From NCBI GenBank assembly GCA_977018835.1, contig OZ361257.1, positions 4,712,001 to 4,776,000 of the forward strand: DNA of 64,000 nucleotides. The letters run 5' to 3'. A program made the position numbers and the translations under genes. Shown piece after piece: positions 13,301-64,000 of the stretch (position 1 is its first letter; every line of letters begins with the position of its first letter). The notes beneath the pieces are model-generated. The model ran no database searches. It was not told where the DNA came from and was given only the letters and a program-made list of their open reading frames with translations. The DNA comes from Minutocellus sp. GHC0000111 (Eukaryota).

Positions 13301-13708
13301 TAGAGATCAGGTTGCTGCTATTGTCAAATGTGAGTTGCTCCGGTTAGGAGCGCCCTAGTTGTCCCAACGCTGCTGCTGGCGATGCCCACGCCACCCACAA
13401 AGATGAGTGCTTTGGCTGCAGTGCAATCACAGGACACTGCTCACCACATGCATTTCTTGCTGCTCTCACATGGCAATGAATGGAACATAAGCTTTGGTAG
13501 AGATCAGGGCACTCCTATGGTCAAACATGAGTTGCTCCAGTTAGGAGCGCCCTAGTTTTCCCAACGCTGCTGGCGACGCCCACACCACCCACAAAGATGC
13601 GTGCTCTGGCTGCAGTGCAACCACTGGACACTGCTCACCACATGCATTCCTTGCTGCTCTCACATGGCAATGAATGGAACATAAGCTTTGGTAGAGATCA
13701 GGGTGCTG

Positions 13709-42100: not shown

Positions 42101-44475
42101 AGGACACTGCTCACCACATGCATTCCTTGCTGCTCTCACATGGCAATTAATGGAACGTAAGCTTTGGTAGAGATCAGGGTGCTCCTATGGTCAAATGTGA
42201 GTTGCTCCAGTTAGGAGCGCCATGGCTTTCCCAACGCTGCTGGCGACGCCCCCACCACCCACAAAGATGAGTGCTTTGGCTGCGGTGCAATCACTGGACA
42301 CTGCTCACCACATGCATTCCTTGCTGCTCTCACATGGCAATGAACGGAACATAAGCTTTGGTAGAGATCAGGGTGCTCCTAAGGTCAAATGTGAGTTGCT
42401 CCAGTTAGGAGCGCCCTGATTTTCCCAACGCTGCTGGCGACGCCCACACCACCCACAAAGATGAGTGCTTTGGCTGCAGTGCAATCACAGGACACTGCTC
42501 ACCACATGCATTCCTTGCTGCTCTCACATGGCAATGAATGGAACACAAGCTTTGGTAGAGATCAGGGTGCTCCTATGGTCAAATGTGAGTTGCCCCAGTT
42601 AGGAGCGCCCTAGTTGTCCCAACGCTTCTGCTGGCGATGCCCACGCCATCCAAAAAGATGAGTGCTTTGGCTGCAGTGCAATCACAGGACACTGCTCACC
42701 ACATGCATTTCTTGCTGCTCTCACATGGCAATGAATGGAGCATAAGCTTTGGTAGAGATCAGGGCACTCCTATGGTCAAACATGAGTTGCTCCAGTTAGG
42801 AGCGCCCTAGTTTTCCCAACGCTGCTGGCGACACCCACACCACCCACAAAGATGCGTGCTTTGGCTGCAGTGCAATCACAGGACACTGCTCAACACATGC
42901 ATTCCTTGCTGCTCTCACATGGCAATGAATGGAACATAAGCTTTGGTAGAGATCAGGGTGCTGCTATGGTCAAATGTGAGTTGCCCCAGTTAGGAGCGCC
43001 CTAGTTGTCCCAACGCTGCTGCTGGCGATGCCCACGCCACCAACATAGATGAGTGCTTTGGCTGCAGTGCAATCACTGGACACTGCTCACCACATGCATT
43101 TCTTGCGAGGAGCGCCCTGGCTTTCCTAACGCTGCTGGCGACCACACACCACCCACAAAGATGCGTGCTTTGGCTGCAGTGCAATCACTGGACACTGCTC
43201 ACCACATGCATTTCTTGCTGCTCTCACATGGCAATGAATGGAACATAAGCTTTGGTAGAGATCAGGGTGCTCCTATTGTTGATGTTAGTTGCTCCAGTTA
43301 GGAGCGCCCTGATTTTCCCAACGCTGCTGTTGACGCCCACACCACCCACAAAGATGAGTGCTTTGGCTGCAGTGCAATCACAGGACACTGCTCACCACAT
43401 GCATTCCTTGCTGCTCTCACATGGCAATGAATGGAACACAAGCTTTGGTAGAGATCAGGGTGCTCCTGTGGTCAAACATGGGTTGCTCCAGCAAGCAGCG
43501 CCCTGATTTTCCCAACACTGCTGGCGACACCCACACCACCCACAAAGATGAGTGCTTTGGCTGCAGTGCAACCACAGGACACTGCTCACCACATGCATTC
43601 CTTGCTGCTCTCACAAGGCAATGAATGGAACATAAGCTTTGGTAGAGATCAGGGTGCTCCTATGGTCAAATGTGAGTTGATCCAGTTAGGACAGCCCTAA
43701 CTTTCCCAACGCTGCTGGCGACGCCCACACCACCCACAAAGATGAGTGCTTTGGCTGCAGTGCAATCACAGGACACTGCTCACCACATGCATTTCTTGCT
43801 GCTCTCACATTGTAATGAATGGAGCATAAGCTTTGGTAGAGATCAGGGTGCTCCTATGGTCAAACATGAGTTGCTCCAGTTAGGAGCGCCCTAGCTTTCC
43901 CAACGCTGCTGGTGACGCCCACATCCCCCCCACAAAGATGCGTGCTCTGGCTGCAGTGCAACCACAGGACACTGCTCACCACATGCATTCCTTGCTGCTC
44001 TCACATGGCAATGAATGGAACATAAGCTTTGGTAGAGATCAGGGTGCTGCTATGGTCAAATATGAGTTGCTCCAGTAATTAGCGCCCTGCTTTTCCCAAC
44101 GCTGCTGGCGACGCCCACACCACCCACAAAGATGAGTGCTTTGGCTGCAGTGCAATCACAGGACACTGCTCACCACATGCATTCCTTGCTGCTCTCACAT
44201 GGCAATGAATGGAACATAAGCTTTGGTAGAGATCAGGGTGCTGCTATGGTCAAACATGAATTGCTCCAGTTAGGAGCGCCCTAGTTTTCCCAACGCTGCT
44301 GGCGACGCCCACACCACCCACAAAGATGCGTGCTTTGGCTGCAGTGCAATCACAGGACACTGCTCACCACATGCATTCCTTGCTGCTCTCACATGGCAAT
44401 GAATGGAACATAAGCTTTGGTAGAGATCAGGGTGCTCCTATTATTGATGTGAGTTGCTCCAGTTAGGAGCGCCCT
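15046..44475. repeat. Tandem duplication of a 14,715-bp satellite block (15046-29760 and 29761-44475)
   Basis: Identical ORF-track entries and rare variants recur at offset 14,715 (15153/29868, 20414/35129, 24451/39166, 28275/42990). A unique out-of-register junction lies at 29760/29761. Confidence 0.92.
21200..28300. repeat. 3,824-bp (~20-monomer, includes one 120-bp deletion monomer) higher-order repeat; re-duplicated at ~35900-43000
   Basis: Offsets 21455/25279, 22370/26194 and 23683/27507; marker GCCGAAGTACAATC at 23352/27176 and 38067/41891. Boundaries approximate. Confidence 0.8.
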
Positions 44476-47400
44476 AGTTTTCCCAACGCTGCTGGCGCCG
44501 CCCACACCACCCACAAAGATGCATGCCTTGGCTGCAGTGCAATCACAGGACACTGCTCACCACATGCATTCCTTGCTGCTCTCACATGGCAATGAATGGA
44601 ACATAAGCTTTGGTAGAGATCAGGGTGCTGCTATGGTCAAATGTGAGTTGCTCCAGTTAGGAGAGCACTGATTTTCCCAACACTGCTGGCTGGCGACTAA
44701 CCAACAACCCACAAAGATGAGTGCTTTGGCTGCAGTGCAATCACAGGACACTGCTCACCACATGCATTCCTTGCTGCTCTCACATGGCAATGAATGGAAC
44801 ATAAGCTTTGGTAGAGATCAGGGTGCTCCTATGGTCAAATGTGAGTTGCTCCAGTTTGGAGAGCACTGATTTTCCCAACGCTGCTTGCTGGCGACTCCCC
44901 AACAACCCACAAAGATGAGTGCTTTGGCTGCAGTGCAATCACAGGACACTGCTCACCACATGCATTCCTTGCTGCTCTCACATGGCAATGAATGGAACAT
45001 AAGCTTTGGTAGAGATCAGGGTGCTCCTATTATTGATGTGAGTTGCTCCAGTTAGGAGCGCCCTAGTTTTCCCAACGCTGCTGGCGACGCCCACAAAGAT
45101 GAGTGCTTTGGCTGCAGTGCAATCACAGGACACTGCTCACCACATGCATTCCTTGCTGCTCTCACATGGCAATGAAGGAACATAAGCTTTGGTAGAGATC
45201 AGGGTGCTCCTGTGGTGACAACTGAGTTGCTCCAGTTAGGAGCGCCCTAGTTTTCCCAATGCTGCTGGTGACGCCCACACCACCCACAAAGATGCATGCT
45301 TTGGCTGCAGTGCAATCACAGGACACTGCTCACCACATGCATTCCTTGCTGCTCTCACATGGCAATGAATGGAACATAAGCTTTGGTAGAGATCAGGGTG
45401 CTCCTATGGTCAAACATGAGTTGCTCCAGTTAGGAGAGCACTGATTTTCCCAACGCTGCTGGCTGGCGATTCCCCAACCACCCACAAAGATGCATGCTTT
45501 GGCTGCAGTGCAATCACAGGACACTGCTCACCACATGCATTCCTTGCTGCTCTCACATGGCAATGAATGGAACACAAGCTTTGGCAGAGATCAGGGCACT
45601 CCTATGGTCAAATGTGAGTTGCTCCAGATAGTACAGCCCTAGTTTTCCCAACGCTGCTGGCGACACCCACACCACCCACAAAGATGCGTGCTTTGGCTGC
45701 AGTGCAATCACAGGACACTGCTCACCACATGCATTCCTTGCTGCTCTCACATGGCAATGAATGGAACATAAGCTTTGGTAGAGATCAGGGTGCTGCTATG
45801 GTCAAATGTGAGTTGCTCCAGTTAGGACAGCCCTAGCTTTCCCAACGCTGCTGGCGACGCCCACACCACCCACAAAGATGCGTGCTTTGGCTGCAGTGCA
45901 ATCACAGGACACTGCTCACCACATGCATTCCTTGCTGCTCTCACATGGCAATGAATGGAACATAAGCTTTGGTAGAGATCAGGGTGCTGCTATGGTCAAA
46001 TATGAGTTGCTCCAGTTAGGACAGCCCTAACTTTCCCAACGCTGCTGGTGACGCCCACACCACCCACAAAGATGCGTGCTTTGGCTGCAGTGCAATCACA
46101 GGACACTGCTCAACACATGCATTCCTTGCTGCTCTCACATGGCAATGAATGGAACATAAGCTTTGGTAGAGATCAGGGTGCTCCTATTGTCAAATGTGAG
46201 TTGATCCAGTTAGGACAGCCCTAACTTTCCCAACGCTGCTGGCGACGCCCACACCACCCACAAAGATGCGTGCTTTGGCTGCAGTGCAATCACAGGACAC
46301 TGCTTAACACATGCATTCCTTGCTGCTCTCACATGGCAATGAATGGAACATAAGCTTTGGTAGAGATCAGGGTGCTCCTATTGTCAAATGTGAGTTGATC
46401 CAGTTAGGAGCGACCCCTAGCTTTCCCAACGCTGCTGGCGACACCCACACCAGCCACAAAGATGCGTGCTTTGGCTGCAGTGCAATCACAGGACACTGCT
46501 CAACACATGCATTCCTTGCTGCTCTCACATGGCAATGAATGGAACATAAGCTTTGGTAGAGATCAGGGTGCTCCTATGGTCAAATGTGAGTTGCCCCAGT
46601 TAGGAGCGCCCTAGTTTTCCCAACGCTGCTGCTGGCGATGCCCACGCCACCCACATAGATGAGTGCTTTGGCTGCAGTGCAATCACAGGACACTGCTCAC
46701 CACATGCATTTCTTGCGAGGAGCGCCCTGGCTTTCCTAACGCTGCTGGCGACCCCACACCACCCACAAAGATGCGTGCTTTGGCTGCAGTGCAATCACTG
46801 GACACTGCTCACCACATGCATTTCTTGCTGCTCTCACATTGTAATGAATGGAACATAAGCTTTGGTAGAGATCAGGGTGCTCCTATGGTCAAATGTGAGT
46901 TGCTCCAGTTAGGAGCGCCATAGCTTTCCCAACGCTGCTGGCGACGCCCACACCACCCACAAAGATGAGTGCTTTGGCTGCAGTGCAATCACAGGACACT
47001 GCTCACCACATGCATTCCTTGCTGCTCTCACATGGCAATGAATGGAACATAAGCTTTGGTAGAGATCAGGGTGCTCCTATGGTCAAATGTGAGTTGCTCC
47101 AGTTAGGAGCGCCCCCTAGCTTTCCCAACGCTGCTGGCGACACCCACACCACCCACAAAGATGCGTGCTTTGGCTGCAGTGCAATCACAGGACACTGCTC
47201 ACCACATGCATTCCTTGCTGCTCTCACATGGCAATGAATGGAACATAAGCTTTGGTAGAGATCAGGGTGCTGCCATGGTCAAATATGAGTTGCTCCAGTT
47301 AGGAGCGCCCTAGCTTTCCCAACGCTGCTGGCGACGCCCACACCACCCACAAAGATGCGTGCTTTGGCTGCAGTGCAATCACTGGACACTGCTCACCACA

Positions 47401-50400
47401 TGCATTCGTTGCTGCTCTCACATGGCAATGAATGGAACACAAGCTTTGGTAGAGATAAGGGTGCTCCTGTGGTCAAACATGGGTTGCTCCAGCAAGCAGC
47501 GCCCTGATTTTCCCAACGCTGCTGGCGACGCCCACACCACCCACAAAGATGAGTGCTTTGGCTGCAGTGCAATCACTGGACACTGCTCACCACATGCATT
47601 CCTTGCTGCTCTCACATGGCAATGAATGGAACATAAGCTTTGGTAGATATCAGGGTGCTCCTATGGTCAAATGTGAGTTGCTCTAGTTAGGAGCGCCCTG
47701 CTTTTCCCAACGCTGCTGGCGACGCCCACACCACCCACAAAGATGAGTGCTTTGGCTGCAGTGCAATCACAGGACACTGCTCACCACATGCATTCGTTGC
47801 TGCTCTCACATGGCAATGAATGGAACATAAGCTTTGGAAGAGATCAGGGTGCTGCTATGGTCAAACATGAATTGCTCCAGTTAGGAGCGCCCTAGATAGT
47901 TTGTCCAACGCTGCTGGCGACGCCCCCACCACCCACAAAGATGAGTGCTTTGGCTGCAGTGCAATCACAGGACACTGCTCAACACATGCATTCCTTGCTG
48001 CTCTCACATGGCAATGAATGGAACATAAGCTTTGGTAGATATCAGGGTGCTCCTATGGTCAAATGTGAGTTGCTCTAGTTAGGAGCGCCCTGCTTTTCCC
48101 AACGCTGCTGGCGACGCCCACACCACCCACAAAGATGAGTGCTTTGGCTGCAGTGCAATCACAGGACACTGCTCACCACATGCATTCGTTGCTGCTCTCA
48201 CATGGCAATGAATGGAACATAAGCTTTGGTAGAGATCAGGGTGCTGCTATGGTCAAACATGAATTGCTCCAGTTAGGAGCGCAATAGTTTTCCCAACGAT
48301 GCTGGCGACGCCCACACCACCCACAAAGATGAGTGCTTTGGCTGCAGTGCAATCACAGGACACTGCTCACCACATGCATTCCTTGCTGCTCTCACATGGC
48401 AATGAATGGAACATAAGCTTTGGTAGAGATCAGGGTGCTCCTATGGTCAAACATGAATTGCTCCAGTTAGGAGCGCCCTAGATAGTTTGTCCAACGCTGC
48501 TGGCGACGCCCCCACCACCCACAAAGATGAGTGCTTTGGCTGCAGTGCAATCACAGGACACTGCTCAACACATGCATTCGTTGCTGATCTCACATGGCAA
48601 TGAATGGAACATAAGCTTTGGAAGAGATCAGGGTGCTGCTATGGTCAAACATGAATTGCTCCAGTTAGGAGCGCCCTAGATAGTTTGTCCAACGCTGCTG
48701 GCGACGCCCACACCACCCACAAAGATGAGTGCTTTGGCTGCAGTGCAATCACAGGACACTGCTCAACACATGCATTCCTTGCTGCTCTCACATGGCAATG
48801 AATGGAACATAAGCTTTGGTAGAGATCAGGGTGCTCCTATGGTCAAATGTGAGTTGATCCAGTTAGGACAGCCCTAACTTTCCCAACGCTGCTGGCGACG
48901 CCCACACCACCCACAAAGATGCGTGCTTTGGCTGCAGTGCAATCACTGGACACTGCTCACCACATGCATTCGTTGCTGCTCTCACATGGCAATGAATGGA
49001 ACACAAGCTTTGGTAGAGATAAGGGTGCTCCTGTGGTCAAACATGGGTTGCTCCAGCAAGCAGCGCCCTGATTTTCCCAACGCTGCTGGCGACGCCCACA
49101 CCACCCACAAAGATGCGTGCTTTGGCTGCAGTGCAATCACTGGACACTGCTCACCACATGCATTCCTTGCTGCTCTCACATGGCAATGAATGGAACATAA
49201 GCTTTGGTAGAGATCAGGGTGCTGCCATGGTCAAATATGAGTTGCTCCAGTTAGGAGCGCCCTAGCTTTCCCAACGCTGCTGGCGACGCCCACACCACCC
49301 ACAAAGATGCGTGCTTTGGCTGCAGTGCAATCACTGGACACTGCTCACCACATGCATTCGTTGCTGCTCTCACATGGCAATGAATGGAACACAAGCTTTG
49401 GTAGAGATAAGGGTGCTCCTGTGGTCAAACATGGGTTGCTCCAGCAAGCAGCGCCCTGATTTTCCCAACGCTGCTGGCGACGCCCACACCACCCACAAAG
49501 ATGAGTGCTTTGGCTGCAGTGCAATCACTGGACACTGCTCACCACATGCATTCCTTGCTGCTCTCACATGGCAATGAATGGAACATAAGCTTTGGTAGAT
49601 ATCAGGGTGCTCCTATGGTCAAATGTGAGTTGCTCTAGTTAGGAGCGCCCTAGCTTTCCCAACGCTGCTGGTGACGCCCACACCACCCACAAAGATACGT
49701 GCTTTGGCTGCAGTGCAATCACAAGACACTGCTCACCACATGCATTCCTTGCTGCTCTCACATGGCAATGAATGGAACATAAGCTTTGGTAGAGATCAGG
49801 GTGCTGCTATGGTCAAATGTGAGTTGCTCCGGTTAGGAGCGCCCTAGCTTTCCCAACGCTGCTGGCGACGCCCACACCACCCACAAAGATGAGTGCTTTG
49901 GCCGAAGTACAATCACTGGACACTGCTCACCACATGCATTCCTTGCTGCTCTCACATGGCAATGAATGGAACAGAAGCTTTGGTAGAGATCAGGGTGCTG
50001 CCATGGTCAAATATGAGTTGCTCCAGTTAGGACAGCCCTAACTTCCCCAACGCTGCTGGCGACACCCACACCACCCACAAAGATGCGTGCTTTGGCTGCA
50101 GTGCAATCACAGGACACTGCTCACCACATGCATTCCTTGCTGCTCTCACATGGCAATTAATGGAACGTAAGCTTTGGTAGAGATCAGGGTGCTCCTATGG
50201 TCAAATGTGAGTTGCTCCAGTTAGGAGCGCCATGGCTTTCCCAACGCTGCTGGCGACACCCCCACCACCCACAAAGATGAGTGCTTTGGCTGCGGTGCAA
50301 TCACTGGACACTGCTCACCACATGCATTCCTTGCTGCTCTCACATGGCAATGAACGGAACATAAGCTTTGGTAGAGATCAGGGTGCTCCTAAGGTCAAAT

Positions 50401-52999
50401 GTGAGTTGCTCCAGTTAGGAGCGCCCTGATTTTCCCAACGCTGCTGGCGACGCCCACACCACCCACAAAGATGAGTGCTTTGGCTGCAGTGCAATCACAG
50501 GACACTGCTCACCACATGCATTCCTTGCTGCTCTCACATGGCAATGAATGGAACACAAGCTTTGGTAGAGATCAGGGTGCTCCTGTGGTCAAACATGGGT
50601 TGCTCCAGCAAGCAGCGCCCTGATTTTCCCAACGCTGCTGGCGACACCCACACCACCCACAAAGATGAGTGCTTTGGCTGCAGTGCAACCACAGGACACT
50701 GCTCACCACATGCATTCCTTGCTGCTCTCACAAGGCAATGAATGGAACATAAGCTTTGGTAGAGATCAGGGTGCTCCTATGGTCAAATGTGAGTTGATCC
50801 AGTTAGGACAGCCCTAACTTTCCCAACGCTGCTGGCGACGCCCACACCACCCACAAAGATGCGTGCTTTGGCTGCAGTGCAATCACTGGACACTGCTCAA
50901 CACATGCATTCCTTGCTGCTCTCACATGGCAATGAATGGAACATAAGCTTTGGTAGAGATCAGGGTGCTGCTATGGTCACATGTGAGTTGCCCCAGTTAG
51001 GAGCGCCCTAGTTGTCCCAACGCTTCTGCTGGCGATGCCCACGCCATCCAAAAAGATGAGTGCTTTGGCTGCAGTGCAATCACAGGACACTGCTCACCAC
51101 ATGCATTTCTTGCTGCTCTCACATGGCAATGAATGGAGCATAAGCTTTGGTAGAGATCAGGGCACTCCTATGGTCAAACATGAGTTGCTCCAGTTAGGAG
51201 CGCCCTAGTTTTCCCAACGCTGCTGGCGACACCCACACCACCCACAAAGATGCGTGCTTTGGCTGCAGTGCAATCACAGGACACTGCTCAACACATGCAT
51301 TCCTTGCTGCTCTCACATGGCAATGAATGGAACATAAGCTTTGGTAGAGATCAGGGTGCTGCTATGGTCACATGTGAGTTGCCCCAGTTAGGAGCGCCCT
51401 AGTTGTCCCAACGCTGCTGCTGGCGATGCCCACGCCACCAACATAGATGAGTGCTTTGGCTGCAGTGCAATCACTGGACACTGCTCACCACATGCATTTC
51501 TTGCGAGGAGCGCCCTGGCTTTCCTAACGCTGCTGGCGACCACACACCACCCACAAAGATGCGTGCTTTGGCTGCAGTGCAATCACTGGACACTGCTCAC
51601 CACATGCATTTCTTGCTGCTCTCACATGGCAATGAATGGAACATAAGCTTTGGTAGAGATCAGGGTGCTCCTATTATTGATGTAAGTTGCTCCAGTTAGG
51701 AGCGCCCTAGTTTTCCCAACGCTGCTGGCGACGCCCACACCACCCACAAAGATGCGTGCTTTGGCTGCAGTGCAATCACAGGACACTGCTCACCACATGC
51801 ATTCCTTTCTGCTCTCACATGGCAATGAATGGAACATAAGCTTTGGTAGAGATCAGGGTGCTGCTATGGTCAAATGTGAGTTGCTCCAGTAAGGAGCGCC
51901 CTGCTTTTCCCAACGCTGCTGGCGACGCCCACACCACCCACAAAGATGCGTGCTTTGGCTGCAGTGCAATCACAGGACACTGCTCACCACATGCATTCCT
52001 TGCTGCTCTCACATGGCAATGAATGGAACATAAACTTTGGTAGAGATCAGGGTGCTCCTATGGTCAAATGTGAGTTGCTCCAGTTAGGAGCGCCCTGATT
52101 TTCCCAACGCTGCTGGCGACGCCCACACCACCCACAAAGATGCGTGCTTTGGCTGCAGTGCAATCACAGGACACTGCTCACCACATGCATTCTTTGCTGC
52201 TCTCACATGGCAATGAATGGAACATAAGCTTTGGTAGAGATCAGGGTGCTCCTATTATTGATGTAAGTTGCTCCAGTTAGGAGCGCCCTAGTTTTCCCAA
52301 CGCTGCTGGCGACGCCCACACCACCCACAAAGATGCGTGCTTTGGCTGCAGTGCAATCACAGGACACTGCTCACCACATGCATTCCTTGCTGCTCTCACA
52401 TGGCAATGAATGGAACATAAACTTTGGTAGAGATCAGGGTGCTCCTATGGTCAAATGTGAGTTGCTCCAGTTAGGAGCGCCCTGATTTTCCCAACGCTGC
52501 TGGCGACAACCACGCCACCCACAAAGATGAGTGCTTTGGCTGCAGTGCAATCACAGGACACTGCTCACCACATGCATTTCTTGCTGCTCTCACATTGTAA
52601 TGAATGGAGCATAAGCTTTGGTAGAGATCAGGGTGCTCCTATGGTCAAACATGAGTTGCTCCAGTTAGGAGCGCCCTAGCTTTCCCAACGCTGCTGGTGA
52701 CGCCCACATCCCCCCCACAAAGATGCGTGCTCTGGCTGCAGTGCAACCACAGGACACTGCTCACCACATGCATTCCTTGCTGCTCTCACATGGCAATGAA
52801 TGGAACATAAGCTTTGGTAGAGATCAGGGTGCTGCTATGGTCAAATATGAGTTGCTCCAGTAATTAGCGCCCTGCTTTTCCCAACGCTGCTGGCGACGCC
52901 CACACCACCCACAAAGATGAGTGCTTTGGCTGCAGTGCAATCACAGGACACTGCTCACCACATGCATTCCTTGCTGCTCTCACATGGCAATGAATGGAA

Positions 53000-55900
53000 C
53001 ATAAGCTTTGGTAGAGATCAGGGTGCTGCTATGGTCAAACATGAATTGCTCCAGTTAGGAGCGCCCTAGTTTTCCCAACGCTGCTGGCGACGCCCACACC
53101 ACCCACAAAGATGCGTGCTTTGGCTGCAGTGCAATCACAGGACACTGCTCACCACATGCATTCCTTTCTGCTCTCACATGGCAATGAATGGAACATAAGC
53201 TTTGGTAGAGATCAGGGTGCTGCTATGGTCAAATGTGAGTTGCTCCAGTAAGGAGCGCCCTGCTTTTCCCAACGCTGCTGGCGACGCCCACACCACCCAC
53301 AAAGATGCGTGCTTTGGCTGCAGTGCAATCACAGGACACTGCTCACCACATGCATTCCTTGCTGCTCTCACATGGCAATGAATGGAACATAAGCTTTGGT
53401 AGAGATCAGGGTGCTCCTATGGTCAAATGTGAGTTGCTCCAGTTAGGAGCGCCCTGATTTTCCCAACGCTGCTGGCGACGCCCACACCACCCACAAAGAT
53501 GCGTGCTTTGGCTGCAGTGCAATCACAGGACACTGCTCACCACATGCATTCTTTGCTGCTCTCACATGGCAATGAATGGAACATAAGCTTTGGTAGAGAT
53601 CAGGGTGCTCCTATTATTGATGTAAGTTGCTCCAGTTAGGAGCGCCCTAGTTTTCCCAACGCTGCTGGCGACGCCCACACCACCCACAAAGATGCGTGCT
53701 TTGGCTGCAGTGCAATCACAGGACACTGCTCACCACATGCATTTCTTGCTGCTCTCACATTGTAATGAATGGAGCATAAGCTTTGGTAGAGATCAGGGTG
53801 CTCCTATGGTCAAACATGAGTTGCTCCAGTTAGGAGCGCCCTAGCTTTCCCAACGCTGCTGGTGACGCCCACATCCCCCCCACAAAGATGCGTGCTCTGG
53901 CTGCAGTGCAACCACAGGACACTGCTCACCACATGCATTCCTTGCTGCTCTCACATGGCAATGAATGGAACATAAGCTTTGGTAGAGATCAGGGTGCTGC
54001 TATGGTCAAATATGAGTTGCTCCAGTAATTAGCGCCCTGCTTTTCCCAACGCTGCTGGCGACGCCCACACCACCCACAAAGATGAGTGCTTTGGCTGCAG
54101 TGCAATCACAGGACACTGCTCACCACATGCATTCCTTGCTGCTCTCACATGGCAATGAATGGAACATAAGCTTTGGTAGAGATCAGGGTGCTCCTATGGT
54201 CAAATGTGAGTTGCTCCAGTTTGGAGAGCACTGATTTTCCCAACGCTGCTTGCTGGCGACTCCCCAACAACCCACAAAGATGAGTGCTTTGGCTGCAGTG
54301 CAATCACAGGACACTGCTCACCACATGCATTCCTTGCTGCTCTCACATGGCAATGAATGGAACACATGCTTTGGCAGAGATCAGGGCACTCCTATGGTCA
54401 AATGTGAGTTGCTCCAGATAGTACAGCCCTAGTTTTCCCAACGCTGCTGGCGACACCCACACCACCCACAAAGATGCGTGCTTTGGCTGCAGTGCAATCA
54501 CTGGACACTGCTCACCACATGCATTCCTTGCTGCTCTCACATGGCAATGAATGGAACATAAGCTTTGGTAGAGATCAGGGTGCTCCTATTGTCAAATGTG
54601 AGTTGATCCAGTTAGGACAGCCCTAACTTTCCCAACGCTGCTGGCGACGCCCACACCACCCACAAAGATGCGTGCTTTGGCTGCAGTGCAATCACAGGAC
54701 ACTGCTCAACACATGCATTCCTTGCTGCTCTCACATGGCAATGAATGGAACATAAGCTTTGGTAGAGATCAGGGTGCTCCTATTGTCAAATGTGAGTTGA
54801 TCCAGTTAGGAGCGACCCCTAGCTTTCCCAACGCTGCTGGCGACACCCACACCAGCCACAAAGATGCGTGCTTTGGCTGCAGTGCAATCACAGGACACTG
54901 CTCAACACATGCATTCCTTGCTGCTCTCACATGGCAATGAATGGAACATAAGCTTTGGTAGAGATCAGGGTGCTCCTATGGTCAAATGTGAGTTGCCCCA
55001 GTTAGGAGCGCCCTAGTTGTCCCAACGCTGCTGCTGGCGATGCCCACGCCACCCACATAGATGAGTGCTTTGGCTGCAGTGCAATCACAGGACACTGCTC
55101 ACCACATGCATTCCTTGCTGCTCTCACATGGCAATGAATGGAACATAAGCTTTGGTAGAGATCAGGGTGCTGCTATGGTCAAACATGAATTGCTCCAGTT
55201 AGGAGCGCCCTAGTTTTCCCAACGCTGCTGGCGACGCCCACACCACCCACAAAGATGCGTGCTTTGGCTGCAGTGCAATCACAGGACACTGCTCACCACA
55301 TGCATTCCTTTCTGCTCTCACATGGCAATGAATGGAACATAAGCTTTGGTAGAGATCAGGGTGCTGCTATGGTCAAATGTGAGTTGCTCCAGTAAGGAGC
55401 GCCCTGCTTTTCCCAACGCTGCTGGCGACGCCCACACCACCCACAAAGATGCGTGCTTTGGCTGCAGTGCAATCACAGGACACTGCTCACCACATGCATT
55501 CCTTGCTGCTCTCACATGGCAATGAATGGAACATAAGCTTTGGTAGAGATCAGGGTGCTCCTATGGTCAAATGTGAGTTGCTCCAGTTAGGAGCGCCCTG
55601 ATTTTCCCAACGCTGCTGGCGACGCCCACACCACCCACAAAGATGCGTGCTTTGGCTGCAGTGCAATCACAGGACACTGCTCACCACATGCATTCTTTGC
55701 TGCTCTCACATGGCAATGAATGGAACATAAGCTTTGGTAGAGATCAGGGTGCTCCTATTATTGATGTAAGTTGCTCCAGTTAGGAGCGCCCTAGTTTTCC
55801 CAACGCTGCTGGCGACGCCCACACCACCCACAAAGATGCGTGCTTTGGCTGCAGTGCAATCACAGGACACTGCTCACCACATGCATTCCTTGCTGCTCTC

Positions 55901-57250
55901 ACATGGCAATGAATGGAACATAAGCTTTGGTAGAGATCAGGGTGCTCCTATTATTGATGTGAGTTGCTCCAGTTAGGAGCGCCCTAGTTTTCCCAACGCT
56001 GCTGGCGCCGCCCACACCACCCACAAAGATGCATGCCTTGGCTGCAGTGCAATCACAGGACACTGCTCACCACATGCATTCCTTGCTGCTCTCACATGGC
56101 AATGAATGGAACATAAGCTTTGGTAGAGATCAGGGTGCTGCTATGGTCAAATGTGAGTTGCTCCAGTTAGGAGAGCACTGATTTTCCCAACACTGCTGGC
56201 TGGCGACTAACCAACAACCCACAAAGATGAGTGCTTTGGCTGCAGTGCAATCACAGGACACTGCTCACCACATGCATTCCTTGCTGCTCTCACATGGCAA
56301 TGAATGGAACATAAGCTTTGGTAGAGATCAGGGTGCTCCTATGGTCAAATGTGAGTTGCTCCAGTTTGGAGAGCACTGATTTTCCCAACGCTGCTTGCTG
56401 GCGACTCCCCAACAACCCACAAAGATGAGTGCTTTGGCTGCAGTGCAATCACAGGACACTGCTCACCACATGCATTCCTTGCTGCTCTCACATGGCAATG
56501 AATGGAACACATGCTTTGGCAGAGATCAGGGCACTCCTATGGTCAAATGTGAGTTGCTCCAGATAGTACAGCCCTAGTTTTCCCAACGCTGCTGGCGACA
56601 CCCACACCACCCACAAAGATGCGTGCTTTGGCTGCAGTGCAATCACTGGACACTGCTCACCACATGCATTCCTTGCTGCTCTCACATGGCAATGAATGGA
56701 ACATAAGCTTTGGTAGAGATCAGGGTGCTCCTATTGTCAAATGTGAGTTGATCCAGTTAGGACAGCCCTAACTTTCCCAACGCTGCTGGCGACGCCCACA
56801 CCACCCACAAAGATGCGTGCTTTGGCTGCAGTGCAATCACAGGACACTGCTCAACACATGCATTCCTTGCTGCTCTCACATGGCAATGAATGGAACATAA
56901 GCTTTGGTAGAGATCAGGGTGCTCCTATTGTCAAATGTGAGTTGATCCAGTTAGGAGCGACCCCTAGCTTTCCCAACGCTGCTGGCGACACCCACACCAG
57001 CCACAAAGATGCGTGCTTTGGCTGCAGTGCAATCACAGGACACTGCTCAACACATGCATTCCTTGCTGCTCTCACATGGCAATGAATGGAACATAAGCTT
57101 TGGTAGAGATCAGGGTGCTCCTATGGTCAAATGTGAGTTGCCCCAGTTAGGAGCGCCCTAGTTGTCCCAACGCTGCTGCTGGCGATGCCCACGCCACCCA
57201 CATAGATGAGTGCTTTGGCTGCAGTGCAATCACAGGACACTGCTCACCAC
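53000..57250. repeat. ~2,145-bp (11-monomer) imperfect higher-order repeat near the retrotransposon
   Basis: Offsets 53174/55318, 54250/56395 and 54668/56813. Internal monomers are partly replaced; boundaries approximate. Confidence 0.7.
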
Positions 57251-58594
57251 ATGCATTTCTTGCGAGGAGCGCCCTGGCTTTCCTAACGCTGCTGGCGACC
57301 CCACACCACCCACAAAGATGCGTGCTTTGGCTGCAGTGCAATCACTGGACACTGCTCACCACATGCATTTCTTGCTGCTCTCACATTGTAATGAATGGAA
57401 CATAAGCTTTGGTAGAGATCAGGGTGCTCCTATGGTCAAATGTGAGTTGCTCCAGTTAGGAGCGCCCTAGCTTTCCCAACGCTGCTGGCGACGCCCACAC
57501 CACCCACAAAGATGAGTGCTTTGGCTGCAGTGCAATCACAGGACACTGCTCACCACATGCATTCCTTGCTGCTCTCACATGGCAATGAATGGAACATAAG
57601 CTTTGGTAGAGATCAGGGTGCTCCTATGGTCAAATGTGAGTTGCTCCAGTTAGGAGCGCCCCCTAGCTTTCCCAACGCTGCTGGCGACACCCACACCACC
57701 CACAAAGATGCGTGCTTTGGCTGCAGTGCAATCACAGGACACTGCTCACCACATGCATTCCTTGCTGCTCTCACATGGCAATGAATGGAACATAAGCTTT
57801 GGTAGAGATCAGGGTGCTCCTATGGTCAAATGTGAGTTGCTCCAGTTAGGAGCGCCCCCTAGCTTTCCCAACGCTGCTGGCGACACCCACACCACCCACA
57901 AAGATGCGTGCTTTGGCTGCAGTGCAATCACAGGACACTGCTCACCACATGCATTTCTTGCTGCTCTCACATGGCAATGAATGGAACATAAGCTTTGGTA
58001 GAGATCAGGTTGCTGCTATGGTCAAATGTGAGTTGCTCCAGTAAGGAGCGCCCTAGTTGTCCCAACGCTGCTGCTGGCGATGCCCACGCCACCCACATAG
58101 ATGAGTGCTTTGGCTGCAGTGCAATCACAGGACACTGCTCACCACATGAATTTCTTGCTGCTCTCACATTGTAATGAATGGAGCATAAGCTTTGGTAGAG
58201 ATCAGGGTGCTCCTATGGCTAAACATGAGTTGCTCCAGTTAGGAGCGCCCTAGTTTTTCCAACGCTGCTGGCGACGCCCGCACCACCCACAAAGATGCGT
58301 GCTTTGGCTGCAGTGCAATCACAGGACACTGCTCACCACATGCATTTCTTGCTGCTCTCACATGGCAATGAATGGAACATAAGCTTTGGTAGAGATCAGG
58401 GTGCTCCTATTATTGATGTTAGTTGCTCCAGTTAGGAGCGCCCTGATTTTCCCAACGCTGCTGGCGACGCCCACACCACCCACAAAGATGCGTGCTTTGG
58501 CTGCAGTGCAATCACAGGACACTGCTCACCACATGCATTCCTTGCTGCTCTCACATGGCAATGAATGGAACATAAGCTTTGGTAGAGATCAGGG

Positions 58595-58790
58595 TGCTAA
58601 GAGGTCCTAAAGCTAAGCTAGATAGATATAGCTAGTAGAGGTTAGTAGGACCTACGTAGATGAAAAATGGGCCATCGGAGATGTCGTTGGCCCATGGATC
58701 AATTGTCAGGAGAGGGCACTGAGTCAGTGGTCTGATCACCGTAAGTACTGTACGAATATATACGTACGTACGTATCCCACGGTGTCAACA
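58595..58790 (-). repeat. 3' LTR, 196 bp (minus strand TGTTGACACC...CTCTTAGCA)
   Basis: Begins with canonical TGTTG directly after the purine tract and ends in CA at the satellite junction. Imperfect terminal inverted repeat TGTTGA/TTAGCA. The 5' LTR is outside the window, so the ends are not cross-checked. Confidence 0.8.
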
Positions 58791-58838: not shown

Positions 58839-61800
58839 CTAATTGGAATCTACATGTAAGTAGACTGGTCGCATGTCGTCATGGTAGCGGGCGGGATTGT
58901 GCTTTTTAAAATAATTTGCGCTCCTTTCCGCCAGCACACCTGGAATTGTCGTTGCTCCATGCGATCTTGGACCCAGTAGAATCTCATGTCCATAGCCTTA
59001 GACCGTCTTTGCTTGACGGTTTTATTGGCGATTCCAGATGCTGTAGAGTTGTCAACGACGACAGCAGTAGGGGGTTGCGGGTGACCCATTTCTTCTAGTG
59101 CTGCCCGGATTGGTGCTGCATCTTTCATGTTGAAAAATAGTCCTCCCAATTCGGCTTCAGCGGCTGAGGACATTGCATGCTTGATGATGTTGGCATTGAC
59201 GAGGATGGCTCCATTCATTGGTGGCATGGGATCACTTGAGTCAGGCTGGCGGTGCGGGTCCTTAGGTCGGGAGCTTAGGTAGAAGTGCCCTCTGAGCTTG
59301 CTTCTTGATTTCGGGGCTGATAAGTGGGAGGCGTCGCTATGTACATGTGGGATCATGTCTGACTTGACGTGTCGAATGACTGCGTCGGGATGGGTTGCAA
59401 GGTAATCTAGAAGCTTCTTGGCATCTTGTCGAGTGCGCTCGGTAGCTTTGGATTGTTCCGCTGAGATGCTGTTGAGCGCCGGTAAAATTGTTGAATCAAT
59501 TGCTCGACCATAGCACAAGGAGCTGCCCACCACCTGTTGAATTTTGTTGATGCCTTTGGCGTCGAGTGGTGGTGAGTCGTCTTCCGGTTCTGGCAGCTGG
59601 GGTCCCGGGCCATACGTCGGATGATTCCATCGACATGGCGCATGCTCGGGCCGTGAGGGGCGGTCGTGTTGGAACTTGTGGCGCATCTCCTTGACGTAGT
59701 TAGGCATAGATAGATCCACCCATTTGGCCTCGTAGTTCCACTCGAGTTGAACACCACAATAAAGTCGGCCTTCCCAATCGGTAGTGATCTTATACTTGGA
59801 GTTGAGGGCCTGAATGAGATGGTCTGCATGCTCTTTCCCGACATGCTTTGCTCCAAAATCGTCAACGGTTAGGCAAAAGGTAATTGGGCGGGTTTTGTGC
59901 CTCCAAAGGCCGGCAGTTCGCTTGCATGGGAAATAGCCATGGGGTTTGAGATGCTTGACAAGTTGATCGTAGGCTAGGCGCCCTGCCTGGGGTAATCCAT
60001 GCATTCCGCCATCGATTCTGACCAATACTCGACCATTCTTTACTTTGTCGTGGAGGTCGTAGGCTTCCATGACTTTGTCGGGGATGAGAGCTACTGGCGC
60101 CCACATCCATTCTGGCTCTGGCATGGTGCTATTGAGATAGAAGTCACTGATATCAATTCCCATGAAACGAGCGTTGTCTGTAGAGATGACGCTGTTGAAA
60201 AGTAACTTTGCAGTCAACATTTCAGCGGTCGGGGTCGAGACTGTACCAGGGTAATGAATTTTGTCGCCTCCTGCAGTCCATCGAACTCGATTGGGATTTG
60301 GTTTATGGGAGCGATAGTCGGCGACAATGCGGAGGTATGTGGCTTTTTTCCCCCGAGGCAGTTCGGACCAGTGGACGAAAGCCATTGTATTGGAGGGAAT
60401 GCTAGCACTGTTTCCAACTCGGCCGTCCGTTAGCCGTCCAATTTCATCGATGTTTGCTTGAATGAATTGGTCCCTCATGTTCGTTTTGAGGAGGTCGCGG
60501 TATTCAAGCATTGCACCAGTGTCGGGATGGACGACGGCGTTAGCAAAGTGTTGGAGGTTTGGTAAAGGCGAGAAAGCTGCCATGTTGGCCACGTGGTGGG
60601 TGCTACGACGAGATGATGGCCGTGGGGGAGGGTTCCGATGTGGAATGTACCCTCGCTGACGGTATGATCGTCGTCGAGGTGGTTTGGCGGTCGATGGTTT
60701 GGACTTGCTTGTCGATTTTGCTGGAGCTGGTAATGTTGGAGTGGCATCGATCGTTGGAGACTTGCGTTTACGTTGCCGACGGGAGGTGGGGGCATTGGAA
60801 CTTTGATTGGATGTTACGACGGTTGCATCGTCGCCGTTGGGCTCGTCTACTGCAACCAAAGGATCGTAGCAGTTGGAAGAAACTGACGAGCGAGGTGGCG
60901 CGTTGGATCGACGTGATCGACGGCTTTTAGTGGTGGCTGCATCATATGTGGAGGATTTTGCCACCCTCGGAGGTTGCTGGGGCTGAGGTAACGGAGCGTT
61001 GGGGTTGGAGACAAGGTGACGGCCTGCTTCAGTCTCGTTCATCTCTTCTACGTCGTCGTCCTCGTATTTGATTTTGTAGTGCTTATACTTCTTGTCAAAT
61101 GCAACGACTCTACCCTTGTAATTGCGATCTCCAAACACTTTGGCGACGATGGTACCGTGGCCGAATCGTTGGGAGTCGTCATCGTTCTCCAGCACCCTCG
61201 GAGCTGCGGTTGTCTGCATCGTCTCATCAGAGGCGGAGGTGGCAGATTCTGCTGGGGTCACTCTGTTGAAAATCTCGGAGAGCTTTTCTAAAGCTTGACG
61301 ATGCTCGTCTCGAAGGGGAGCAAGGGGTGCCGCTGGATGTGGATTCTGTAGAGCGTGCAGGAGTTCATGAGCTGCGACTATTGCTGCATCGGCCGACGAC
61401 GTTTTGGGTACCGGAATCATTTTGGGGAGCCAGACGAGTGTGTTACCAGTGCGTTCCGCCCGAGTTTCCTCAATCCAAACCTTGTAACACCGGTAGTGTT
61501 CCATGGCTGGACCGACATAGTACCCATCAACGCCATGCGGGGACCAAGAGCCGCGTGCCGAGGGCATCTCGTGAAAGATGACCTTGCATCCGAGGGGGCC
61601 GAGAGGCGTGCGATTGAAATCAAAGCCGCCATTGAGTTGCTCGTACGCTGATAGTCGAGGGTTGACTCGGGATGCTCTCAGGAAATTGAGGGTCATTACC
61701 GCCTGCTCCAGCAATTTATCCCACAAGATGAGGGGAAAGTCGGGATCGGTACCACAGAGAATCGCAATGAAATGATTCTTAAAGGTTCGAATGGCTCGTT

Positions 61801-62989
61801 CGGCCGCATTTCGGCGGTGGGAGTGCGTTGGGGTCAATTGAAAATCTACATCCTTTTCTTCCATGAACTCCTTCAGCTCTCGACTCACTTCATTATCCAA
61901 TCGTTGCAATTTTGGGCGAAATCCTCGCTTGGAGAGGTATTCGAAAATAGTTTGGTACGCTCGGCGCATTTCCGTTCCCGATCGGCTTTTCATTGGTTCG
62001 GCCAAGATGCTGTTGGAGTCATAGTCATAGACGACCATTATGTGCTGGTGGCCAGAAATAGACGATACCAAGAAACGGCCGGGCTGATCTGAGAAGATCT
62101 GGCCCGTTATGTCATGACAATCAGCAAAGACATAGTTGGTGCGCTGTTGGTGTTGTGCCGGGTGGAGATCCTGCTCGGTTTCGTCCACCCCAGGGAGAGA
62201 TTTTGGCGTAGCCATCGACCGTTTGGGCTTGGTCGACCTGATGTTCTTGCGCTGCTGGTCTAAGTGACCTTTAATCATCGGCATCGACTGTGGCATGTGC
62301 TTACGTACAAGCTTTGATGTGAGGCCTGGCCAAGATCTATAAAATCCCGCATCGATTGCTTTGCACCAGGTAGATAGCTGAGGACTGCCAGCGCACCAAT
62401 GTAAAAAGGCTACACGTTCCGGAACCGTCTCCTGGGCAATTGCGGCGTTGGCAGCATGTTGGATGACGTTGGGGCCGGGGAGCGGCGACATGGTGGGCGA
62501 GCAATTAAGATCTACCATCCACAATTTCGTTGAGGGGTCTCGTTTACCTTGCAAAATGACGGTGTTGTCCTTGGCGATGACTACCGAATCCTTATCGAAA
62601 GTGGCAACACATCCATCGTCACACAGCTGCCCAATCGATAGGAGCGATGATGCCATATTGTTGAAAATATAGGCCTTGCTAGCCGATGGGGAAACCCCAG
62701 GGAGGCGAAGCGTGGCCTCGTGGGTGTTCGTCATTGTGCTGTTATCCGGAAGGGTGACGCTGATAGGAATTGCTGTCTGTTGGACGCTGAAAATAGGGCC
62801 ATCGTACGATAGGTATTGGGGCTTCTGGACAAAATGTCCCGTCGTTCCAGTATCTGCTGCGAGGACGATTGGCTCTTGAGTTGGAGGTTTGCTTTTTGAC
62901 GTAAGAAAAGCTAACGAAGGCGGGGAGGAGGTGGATTCAGATATGCTATCCTCTGTTTTATACTGATTAATATCCACCGTCCCTCCCGC
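58839..62989 (-). pseudogene. pol: pol polyprotein (aspartic protease, GAG-pre-integrase, rve integrase, Tudor-like domain, RT, RNase H); long ORF open but probably inactivated
   Basis: PR motif ADTGTTGHF (~62831-62860); IN D-D-E in FSDQPGRF / RLDNE / NAAERAIRTFKNHF; SH3-like GCKV...GYYVG...HYRCYKVW; RT motifs DISDFYL, GLPQAG, TVDDFG; RH motifs SDAS, SSAAEAE, DNSTA, SKAMDMRFYW. Frameshift at ~58920 and many substitutions at conserved residues. The ORF-track start (62977) is GTG, not ATG. Confidence 0.9.
61013..61165 (-). other. Tudor-like (royal family) domain within the integrase C-terminal extension
   Basis: FGHGTIVAKVFGDRNYKGRVVAFDKKYKHYKIKYEDDDVEEMNETEAGRHL fits the Tudor pattern G-x-x-V-x-K-x-F...Y-x-G-x-V...Y-x-I-x-Y-x-D-(G/D)-D-x-E. 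Recognised by eye; no HMM run. Confidence 0.7.
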
Positions 62990-64000
62990 TCAGTTACGAC
63001 GCGAGCTACCACCGCAAGGATTGTACTTGGTGGCGTTATCAACGTGGTTGGGCCCTTTGCAAGTGCATTCAAAGCTGGGGTGGTTGGACGAATAGCCGCA
63101 CGTGTGGCAATAATGGCCTCTGGGGAGGATCGACTGCAGTTCCCGCTTCTCCTGGTGGTTGAGGTTAGGACCTTGGCCTGGGAAGTGGCCGGCGCCGTTC
63201 TGCTGGCCACCGCCGCGGTAGCCTCCACTGCCACCAGTGTGGTTGCGTCCCTCACGCAGAACGCGGTTCTCGGCCTTGAGTGAAGCTATTTCTTGGCGAA
63301 GTTTGGCAATGGTGTCATCCTTCTCGTTGCTCTTTTTGGCGAGGTTCGCCATCATGGCTTGGTTGGTCTTGAGGGCTTCGGTGGTATCAGCCAAAAGGAG
63401 ATCGGCTCGAGAAAGAAATGGATCGTCCGAGGCCGATGAGGCCAAATTCGCGCCATGATATCCTGCCGCTTCGGTGGTGGTATTGGCCATCTTCTTATCA
63501 CACCAATCGCGGAAGTCCGACTGCATGTTGGCCCACGTGCGTTCGGCCTCCGGTCTGTCGTCCCAGTCCTCGCATGCCTTCTTTGCCAATGAGAACCTGC
63601 GCACGGAGCGGTAGAACTTGGAGACCTTTTGCTTGTTGGTGAAGGGTTCGCCGGCCGTTTCAAACGCCTTGAAGACTTTGTTGAATATGGCGATGTGGGT
63701 GTCGATGGGTCCCCCGTCGTGCTGCTTCTCGAGCTGCTTCTCTAATTCCTCCTTCTGAGTCTCGTTGAATTTCAAGTAGCGATCGGCAATGCTGTCGATG
63801 ATTTGGCGGATGGTGACTGGCTGGAAACCGAGCATGTCATCTTCGAGATGATTGATGTAGACGGCGTCGATCGAGTCGAGGAGGAGATTCTTGATCGCCG
63901 TGTTGACTTGCTCGTGCAAGTTGTAGTGGCCCTTTTCGATGTGATGTCCCCGGATTGCACGATCGCGTTGGTCTAGATTGGCCACGGCGGGAATGGTGGG
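62990..64000 (-). CDS. gag: gag (capsid/nucleocapsid), 5'-truncated by the window edge
   Basis: The frame stays open to 64000 (PTIPAVANL...). It has the motif W...P...RTW.N....F, a coiled-coil, a Gly-rich linker and a C-terminal Cys/His cluster YCHTCGYSSNHPSFEC...H...AT..N..GGS, and ends at TGA 62992-62990. Confidence 0.85.
   Translation of the reverse strand, partial: PTIPAVANLDQRDRAIRGHHIEKGHYNLHEQVNTAIKNLLLDSIDAVYINHLEDDMLGFQPVTIRQIIDSIADRYLKFNETQKEELEKQLEKQHDGGPIDTHIAIFNKVFKAFETAGEPFTNKQKVSKFYRSVRRFSLAKKACEDWDDRPEAERTWANMQSDFRDWCDKKMANTTTEAAGYHGANLASSASDDPFLSRADLLLADTTEALKTNQAMMANLAKKSNEKDDTIAKLRQEIASLKAENRVLREGRNHTGGSGGYRGGGQQNGAGHFPGQGPNLNHQEKRELQSILPRGHYCHTCGYSSNHPSFECTCKGPNHVDNATKYNPCGGSSRRN

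What the first reader, a model, noticed from the sequence alone, without database searches (positions are those of the whole stretch)
61013..61165. Copia integrase with a C-terminal Tudor-like reader, in an element abutting a satellite array
Seen: a ~50-aa beta-rich, aromatic-rich module (F, Y, F, Y, Y, Y, then acidic EDDDVEE) lies between the integrase core/SH3 region and RT, flanked by low-complexity linkers. Known: Ty3/gypsy chromoviruses use an integrase C-terminal chromodomain, and Ty5 a Sir4-binding motif, for targeting. Tudor domains (LBR, 53BP1, plant PTM/DIR17-type) are related royal-family folds that read methyl-Lys/Arg or nucleic acid. Inference: a copia analogue of chromoviruses whose Tudor domain tethers integration to centromeric or heterochromatic nucleosomes, consistent with its position at the satellite.
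Basis: partly seen in the sequence, partly recalled or inferred. Interest (0 to 1): 0.82.

Follow-up and report, generated by a model that had tools for sequence, protein, structure and literature searches.

The report
Copia retrotransposon carrying a Tudor reader
A copia-type jumping gene, likely from a marine diatom, carries a Tudor domain between its integrase and reverse transcriptase that keeps the pocket a plant protein uses to read a methylated histone, so it likely helps steer where the element inserts, though nothing here shows that it aims at the neighbouring satellite or at centromeres.

Summary
Confirmed: pol aa 607-659 (61013-61171, minus strand) is a PTM/DIR17-type Tudor domain (Pfam 42 bits, cut-off 27.2; predicted barrel matches Tudor structures), inserted in frame behind the integrase of a CoDi-type Ty1/copia element. 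It is conserved above its linkers, present in all 45 spanning members of seven clusters and absent from sister elements. A second, distant copia lineage carries it at the same place (one clade rejected, AU p 0.005). Five residues of the H3K4me1 pocket of Arabidopsis RDM15, the closest solved relative by sequence, are kept. That points to low-methyl lysine rather than centromeric chromatin. The satellite argument is weak: the 58.6-kb array holds no other insertion, listed LTR flanks are non-satellite, and copies lie on at least 12 large contigs. This copy is decayed. Reader capture is known (CoDi-A chromodomain, CopiaMBD, a Tudor-bearing Gypsy in Ectocarpus); a Tudor in copia was not found in print, though this scan noted PHD-Tudor copia elements on other DNA. 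New variant of a known kind; binding and targeting are untested.

The parts
61013..61171 (-). PTM/DIR17-type Tudor domain, pol aa 607-659; pocket F619, Y624, Y642, D644, D646, E648
   Evidence: Pfam, model and fold searches, RDM15 alignment, coordinates
58850..62989 (-). pol frame, 1379 codons, order protease, integrase, Tudor, RT, RNase H; decayed copy
61799..62401 (-). integrase zinc-finger start to catalytic D301, D365, E397 (motif labels recalled)
   Evidence: homology to relatives
60542..61012 (-). basic, P/S/T-rich linker after the Tudor, ending in two H-x-x-AN motifs (aa 799, 814) like the one at the protease/integrase border (aa 178); likely cleavage sites, which would leave the Tudor on integrase
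   Evidence: cleavage role inferred
58931..60544 (-). reverse transcriptase and RNase H; frame broken near 58914 by a 10-base deletion relative to contigs of two runs
62990..64000 (-). gag (5' part outside the window), in the same frame as pol and separated from it by one TGA
58595..58790 (-). 3' LTR, 196 bp, TG...CA, preceded by a purine tract; holds the 9-base complement (58649-58657) of the sequence that follows the 5' LTR in relatives
1..58594 (+). 194-bp satellite array, one orientation, no interruption of 30 bp or more

Best explanation
This is a host-type Tudor domain inserted in frame between integrase and reverse transcriptase of a CoDi-type copia element, kept in its whole subfamily, and it likely stays on the mature integrase and likely binds a low-methylated histone lysine (best guess H3K4me1), which would bias insertion towards nucleosomes with that mark rather than towards the satellite. 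Shown: the fold family, the position, the clean insertion relative to sister elements, conservation above the linkers, the intact pocket residues, and presence in at least two separate copia lineages. Inferred: protease cleavage behind the Tudor, histone binding, the identity of the mark, any effect on target sites, and the diatom host.
For: Pfam above cut-off; model and Tudor-dominated fold hits. Best solved relative by profile is 7DE9, E 6.6e-5, the RDM15 Tudor bound to H3K4me1 (PMC8184781, passages). By offset in that alignment RDM15 Y623, Y641, D643, D645 and E647 equal Y624, Y642, D644, D646 and E648 here. Across 15 copia-borne domains: Y641 15/15, D643 15/15, D645 15/15, E647 14/15, F at the inferred W616 place 15/15, and Y 8 / H 5 / W 2 at Y623. 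P0004 vs P0006 identity: Tudor 66%, flanking linkers 31% and 45%. All 45 listed members of the seven Tudor clusters that span the site keep it; 0 of 10 long members of three sister clusters have it. Sisters keep the flanking motifs without the domain. The Tudor-bearing pols fall in two clades, monophyly rejected at AU p 0.005. H-x-x-AN motifs lie at aa 178, 799 and 814, none between integrase core and Tudor.
Against: No binding or insertion map. The pocket residues are a signature of the whole PF21743 family (for example D643 in 247 of 257 other domains), so their presence is weak evidence for one ligand. The W616 place holds F with a loop two residues shorter (mapping inferred; outside the printed alignment), and RDM15 Q654 was not aligned. 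7DE9 is not among the listed rows of either fold search; best VIA Z is 6.7 (a PWWP) and 6.6 (PHF1 Tudor, rmsd 2.7, 54 aligned), a middling range. Conservation was measured as protein identity, not dN/dS. Five lineage-B domains have His at the Y623 place. The H-x-x-AN pattern was not found at the RT border in P0009 or P0257-P0259. Where H3K4me1 lies in diatoms was not established (listing only). Most relatives manage without the domain (116 of 121).
Confidence: 0.5

Rival explanations
1. One reading: the Tudor tethers integration to centromeric or heterochromatic nucleosomes of this satellite.
For: This copy is joined directly to a 58.6-kb satellite. One run whose joints all fall at GATC/GANTC sites (11 of 11 places checked, background 11%; likely Hi-C) shows satellite-element joints. 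A centromere-enriched copia exists in an oomycete (CoLT, PMC7082073, passages). One distant relative lies near degenerate TTAGGG repeats (L001).
Against: No other insertion in 58.6 kb of array. In the listed rows, 11 contigs from four samples carry non-satellite flanks at LTR ends, and no listed joint links an LTR end to satellite (5 of 5 joints shown; 15 of 22 shown). The 15 listed of 113 near-identical copies lie on 12 contigs of 0.58-3.3 Mb. The pocket resembles a monomethyl-lysine reader. Caveats: 127 and 71 loose-end rows were hidden, short-read contigs under-report repeat-repeat junctions, the flanks seen may belong to more diverged subfamilies, and positions on the large contigs are unknown.
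Confidence: 0.15
2. The domain is functional but not a site selector: it grips nucleosomes, nucleic acid or a methylated non-histone host protein to aid nuclear retention, integration efficiency or escape from silencing.
For: Conservation and repeated gain need a function, not this one. Second-best sequence relative is the LBR Tudor, which is recalled as not binding methyl marks. The domain has 11 K/R and is followed by a very basic linker.
Against: The acidic pair and aromatics that define RDM15's methyl-lysine pocket are the invariant positions, and the site is where other LTR elements carry targeting modules.
Confidence: 0.27
3. A neutral passenger picked up in a tolerant linker.
For: The linker varies from 107 to 308 aa among 121 relatives and most lack the domain.
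Against: Kept in frame with an intact pocket while flanks fall to 31-45% identity; 45 of 45 spanning members keep it; found in separate lineages.
Confidence: 0.08

Closest known systems
Gypsy-10_Ec32 of Ectocarpus (PMC12477816, passages read)
   Same: LTR retrotransposon of a stramenopile with a Tudor domain on pol; the authors call it the first reported TE with a Tudor domain.
   Different: Ty3/Gypsy, domain at the C-terminus of pol; here Ty1/copia, domain internal between integrase and RT. Whether the Tudor subtype is the same was not tested.
CoDi-A Ty1/copia elements with a putative chromodomain (PMC2774666, passages read)
   Same: Diatom-type copia with a royal-family module at the integrase C-terminus.
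   Different: Chromodomain rather than Tudor; no Chromo family hit here at E up to 1. Their alignment is a picture in the supplement and could not be read, so identity with this domain is not formally excluded.
CopiaMBD of arthropods (PMC6673714, abstract and passages)
   Same: Copia that captured a host epigenome reader next to integrase, under purifying selection, with biased insertion.
   Different: Reads methyl-CpG DNA; binding and insertion bias were shown there, not here.
RDM15/PDS5C Tudor of Arabidopsis, PDB 7DE9 (PMC8184781, passages)
   Same: Closest solved sequence relative; Y623, Y641, D643, D645, E647 have identical counterparts.
   Different: Host chromatin protein; W616 appears as F with a shorter loop; Q654 not aligned; not among listed fold-search rows.
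Ty3/gypsy chromoviruses (MAGGY; as summarised in 10.1101/2021.11.30.470311 section 10)
   Same: Working principle: a histone-mark reader on integrase that would tether integration.
   Different: Other superfamily, other fold, and a heterochromatin mark (H3K9me) as ligand.

Membership tests
Tudor domain, PTM/DIR17 type (PF21743) | Profile score above the curated cut-off | tested here: met
   42.1 bits in pol, 48 bits alone, cut-off 27.2
Tudor domain, PTM/DIR17 type (PF21743) | Small antiparallel beta-barrel like solved Tudor domains | tested here: met
   Strands 19-24, 27-37, 42-47, 52-56 and a short helix, pLDDT 85-92; 29 of 32 listed Foldseek rows Tudor, best E 6e-3; VIA Z 6.6, rmsd 2.7, 54 aligned to PHF1 Tudor
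RDM15-type H3K4me1 reader | Cage tyrosines Y623 and Y641 plus acidic pair D643/D645 and E647 | tested here: met
   Y624, Y642, D644, D646, E648 by alignment offset
RDM15-type H3K4me1 reader | W616 of the cage and Q654 of the H3R2 pocket | tested here: inconclusive
   Both lie outside the printed alignments; F619 is the inferred counterpart of W616
RDM15-type H3K4me1 reader | Selective binding of H3K4me1 | not testable with these tools
   Needs peptide array or ITC
Ty1/copia, CoDi type | pol order PR-IN-RT-RH with RVT_2-type RT | tested here: met
   (RVT_2 E 2.5e-5, below its cut-off in this decayed copy)
Ty1/copia, CoDi type | TG...CA LTR with polypurine tract | tested here: met
   58595-58790; 5' LTR and target duplication are outside the window
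Ty1/copia, CoDi type | Close kinship to diatom copia pols | tested here: met
   About 51% identity over half the query to two pols named Fragilaria crotonensis, the only named organisms among 120 hits; trees. The label CoDi is recalled
Ty1/copia, CoDi type | Assignment to a named CoDi clade (A-D or CoDi1-7) | not tested
   No reference CoDi sequences were in the trees
Chromovirus | Ty3/gypsy order RT-RH-IN | tested here: not met
   Integrase precedes RT
Chromovirus | Chromodomain at the integrase C-terminus | tested here: not met
   The module scores as Tudor; no Chromo family at E up to 1
Centromere- or satellite-targeted retrotransposon | Most copies in satellite or CENH3 chromatin | tested here: inconclusive
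   One copy at the array; listed flanks elsewhere non-satellite, with hidden rows and assembly bias; no genome held

The most novel reading that the evidence does not exclude
Diatom-type copia elements have repeatedly (two, perhaps three times) captured the same H3K4me1-reading Tudor domain into the same slot of integrase and use it to aim integration at monomethylated nucleosomes: a retrotransposon tether to a gene-body-type mark, opposite in logic to heterochromatin-seeking chromoviruses, and part of a wider traffic of this domain onto mobile-element recombinases.
Probability: 0.25. Interest if true: 0.75.

Novelty: new variant of a known kind. Interest (0 to 1): 0.5.

Why it matters
Target-site choice of copia elements is mostly explained by short integrase motifs that bind host proteins (recalled). 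Here a 53-aa foldable reader with a predictable ligand is present in one subfamily and absent from close sisters (66% identical integrase core), which is a natural paired test of whether a captured histone reader redirects integration. Repeated gain at one site suggests selection. If the ligand is H3K4me1 it would be a tether to a mark for which the searches made here found no TE-encoded reader.

Tried and rejected
Whole-genome mapping of copies: no genome held. Single-sequence search of solved structures gave only chance hits; the profile search was needed. The wide VIA search never ran; 7DE9 was not among listed rows, which does not exclude similarity. Viral contigs: one chance hit (L002, a tailed-phage region) and none for P0258. 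Metagenome scan with the LTR end gave one locus. Satellite-element joints in run X4 look like Hi-C ligations; two abundant repeats would ligate often by chance, so they were not used as support. The loose end shared by X1, X7, X17 and L001 at 58595 is the element's own leader, not an insertion site, and was left out of the flank count. The satellite is not derived from the element (best match 12 bp, E 0.53). A tree of the Tudor domains alone (52 columns, 230 rows) cannot tell independent capture from transfer between elements. The first full IQ-TREE run timed out; FastTree on all rows and IQ-TREE on 34 chosen rows were used instead. Contig depths were not used as copy numbers. No complex prediction was run: a methylated peptide cannot be modelled there. 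One search found nothing relevant. Papers on self-priming diatom copia and on TpA mutation in diatoms were not found by those searches.

Full report
Anatomy. Bases 1-58594 are a 194-bp satellite in one orientation, 99.8% covered by one unit with no gap of 30 bp or more. A minus-strand LTR element follows: a 196-bp 3' LTR (58595-58790, TG...CA) with a purine tract, a 1379-codon pol frame (58850-62989) and a gag frame that runs off the window. The order is protease, integrase, RT, RNase H, so this is Ty1/copia. The only named organisms among the 120 best relatives are two pols of the diatom Fragilaria crotonensis. Runs holding the element are labelled sponge metagenome, marine metagenome and coded organisms. 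A sponge-associated diatom is the likeliest host; this is inferred and was not tested with marker genes.

The domain is real. Pfam PF21743 matches aa 612-654 above its cut-off. A search of 1.84 billion representatives gave 134 hits; all 80 that were scanned carry PF21743. The model from a 46-sequence alignment has mean pLDDT 79.6 with four strands and a short helix. Foldseek gave no match at E 0.001, but 29 of 32 listed rows are Tudor structures, two are PWWP and one is ribosomal. VIA-align gave Z 6.7 for a PWWP and 6.6 for PHF1 Tudor (rmsd 2.7, 54 aligned), a middling range. Sequence and fold evidence agree on Tudor.

It is an insertion kept by a subfamily. Of 121 pols (the window's plus the best 120 of 728 hits), five carry the domain and form one clade with full support. 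Their nearest Tudor-less relatives are 66-67% identical in the integrase core and keep the motifs on both sides of the site without the domain. Between P0004 and P0006 the Tudor is 66% identical against 31% and 45% for the linkers, 84% for the integrase core and 76% for RT-RNase H. Of the listed members of seven Tudor clusters, all 45 that span the site keep it; none of 10 long members of three sister clusters has it.

It occurs more than once. A profile search among longer proteins gave three more full-length copia pols with the domain (P0257-P0259), only 47-52% identical to P0004 in the integrase core, again behind the post-core helix and a PRV motif. In an IQ-TREE tree of 34 chosen rows built without the linker, the label needs two changes in all 200 bootstrap trees, and a single clade is rejected (AU p 0.005; the second lineage sits on a long branch, and the group was defined by domain content after an earlier FastTree had been seen). 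Fragments P0205 and P0247 suggest a third lineage. Two gains, transfer between elements, or one old gain with many losses all remain possible; the 52-column domain tree does not decide. These three pols were found by searching for the domain, so 8 of 125 is not a frequency.

Likely ligand. A profile search of solved structures ranks 7DE9 first (E 6.6e-5), then two LBR Tudor entries. 7DE9 is the Arabidopsis RDM15 Tudor with an H3K4me1 peptide: W616, Y623 and Y641 form the cage, D643 and D645 coordinate the monomethyl-ammonium protons and confer selectivity for the monomethyl state, and E647 and Q654 hold H3R2 (PMC8184781, passages). The aligned stretch places Y, Y, D, D, E at exactly these spacings in the element: Y624, Y642, D644, D646, E648. 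F619 is the inferred counterpart of W616. Among 15 copia-borne domains the second tyrosine and both aspartates are invariant, E is kept in 14, and the first tyrosine is Y 8, H 5, W 2. The same residues dominate the 257 other domains, so this is a family trait, not proof of ligand. Plant MSH6 Tudor also binds H3K4me1, a gene-body mark in plants, and MSH6-Tudor occurs in some stramenopiles (10.1101/2024.10.15.618488, passages; 10.1101/2025.06.06.658275, passages). I did not establish where H3K4me1 lies in diatoms (listing only).

Position after processing. H-x-x-AN motifs occur at aa 178 (protease/integrase border) and at 799 and 814 (before RT), none in between, in P0001, P0004 and P0291; an AN-type motif lies at the RT start in 59 of 121 pols against 7 in a same-sized stretch after the integrase core. 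Reading these as cleavage sites is inference; if right, the Tudor stays on integrase.

The satellite link is weak. The array holds no other insertion in 58.6 kb. In read-contig layings, the listed loose ends at LTR termini that are not the element's own leader come to 11 contigs from four samples (X3/X5 are one sample and counted once, 7; X17 2; X7 1; X1 1), all unlike the satellite unit that was included in the stretch. No listed joint links an LTR end to satellite (5 of 5 joints shown; 15 of 22). 127 and 71 loose-end rows were not shown, and such contigs under-report junctions between two repeats. The cluster nearest this copy has 113 members; the 15 listed lie on 12 contigs of 0.58-3.3 Mb, presumably the same genome, at unknown positions. 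Nothing shows that the satellite is centromeric (listing only). One adjacency does not show targeting, and centromeric clusters on each chromosome are not excluded.

State of this copy. It is decayed: a 10-base deletion near 58914 shifts the end of RNase H, and a 21-base in-frame deletion lies at 60825. Of 82 amino-acid differences from two agreeing relatives, 22-24 are single TA to CA or TA to TG changes; across 16 copies of this cluster 193 of 457 tyrosine positions read Cys or His, against 0 of 224, 3 of 141 and 0 of 152 in three related clusters. TpA-specific hypermutation was described in Bigelowiella natans (10.64898/2026.01.13.699255, abstract). The pocket residues of this copy are intact.

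Comparison with what is known. Ectocarpus Gypsy-10_Ec32 was reported in 2025 as the first TE with a Tudor domain (PMC12477816, passages). CoDi-A copia elements were reported with a putative integrase chromodomain (PMC2774666, passages; the supplementary alignment is a picture and was unreadable). Arthropod Copia carry a functional MBD (PMC6673714, abstract and passages). A survey of reader-TE fusions names mainly PHD and Chromo (10.1101/2021.11.30.470311, passages and section 10); its Supplementary Table 6 was not seen and might list Tudor fusions. Searches listed no paper on a Tudor in a copia element; subscription journals and Repbase reports are not covered. This scan noted PHD-Tudor, PDZ and chromodomain inserts at the same slot in copia elements of other genomes (unchecked notes); nothing matched this domain by sequence. 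PMC2806351 (passages) and PMC7082073 (passages) gave background only.

Verdict. It works like a chromovirus or CopiaMBD module by inference, is not a chromovirus, and is a new variant of a known kind: a stand-alone RDM15-like Tudor in copia integrase, present in at least two lineages. Targeting through low-methyl lysine 0.5, other function 0.27, satellite or centromere tether 0.15, passenger 0.08. Interest 0.5.

Noticed in passing
window 58850-62989 and cluster members P0003, P0263-P0276: Both-strand TpA to CpA/TpG hypermutation: 193 of 457 Tyr positions read Cys or His in 16 copies; the satellite also has TA o/e 0.42 and CG o/e 0.34. Signature like that reported in Bigelowiella natans.
   Followed up: partly
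window 58649-58657; L001 626-706: The 9 bases right after the 5' LTR pair with a site 54-63 bases before the LTR end, closing a hairpin of -20 kcal/mol (no shuffle control); same leader start in three runs and L001. Suggests Tf1-like self-priming.
   Followed up: partly
window 62990-62992: gag and pol share one frame, separated by a single TGA; pol proteins of relatives start at about the same place. Possible stop read-through or separate initiation.
   Followed up: no
proteins P0198, P0193, P0214: The same Tudor type sits behind an integrase-like domain (P0198, by eye), before a resolvase domain (P0193, Pfam) and in a transposase-like protein (P0214, by eye): other mobile elements may have captured it too.
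   Followed up: no
proteins P0136, P0170: PF21743 Tudor repeats fused to a 5-hmdU DNA kinase helical domain, a base-modification family, in two probably eukaryotic proteins.
   Followed up: no
L001 1095-1135: A related element's 5' LTR lies about 200 bases from degenerate TTAGGG repeats; single case.
   Followed up: no
protein P0109: A Tudor-less relative carries CCCH zinc-finger families (PF00642, PF18044), another accessory domain in this group.
   Followed up: no
window 57992 (runs X1 and X7): One contig in each of two runs leaves the satellite here into the same unrelated sequence, possibly another insertion in, or an end of, the array elsewhere in the genome.
   Followed up: no
window 61240 (run X7): An RNA-run contig joins the first bases of the LTR end directly to pol just upstream of the Tudor, as an internally deleted derivative lacking Tudor and RT would.
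   Followed up: no
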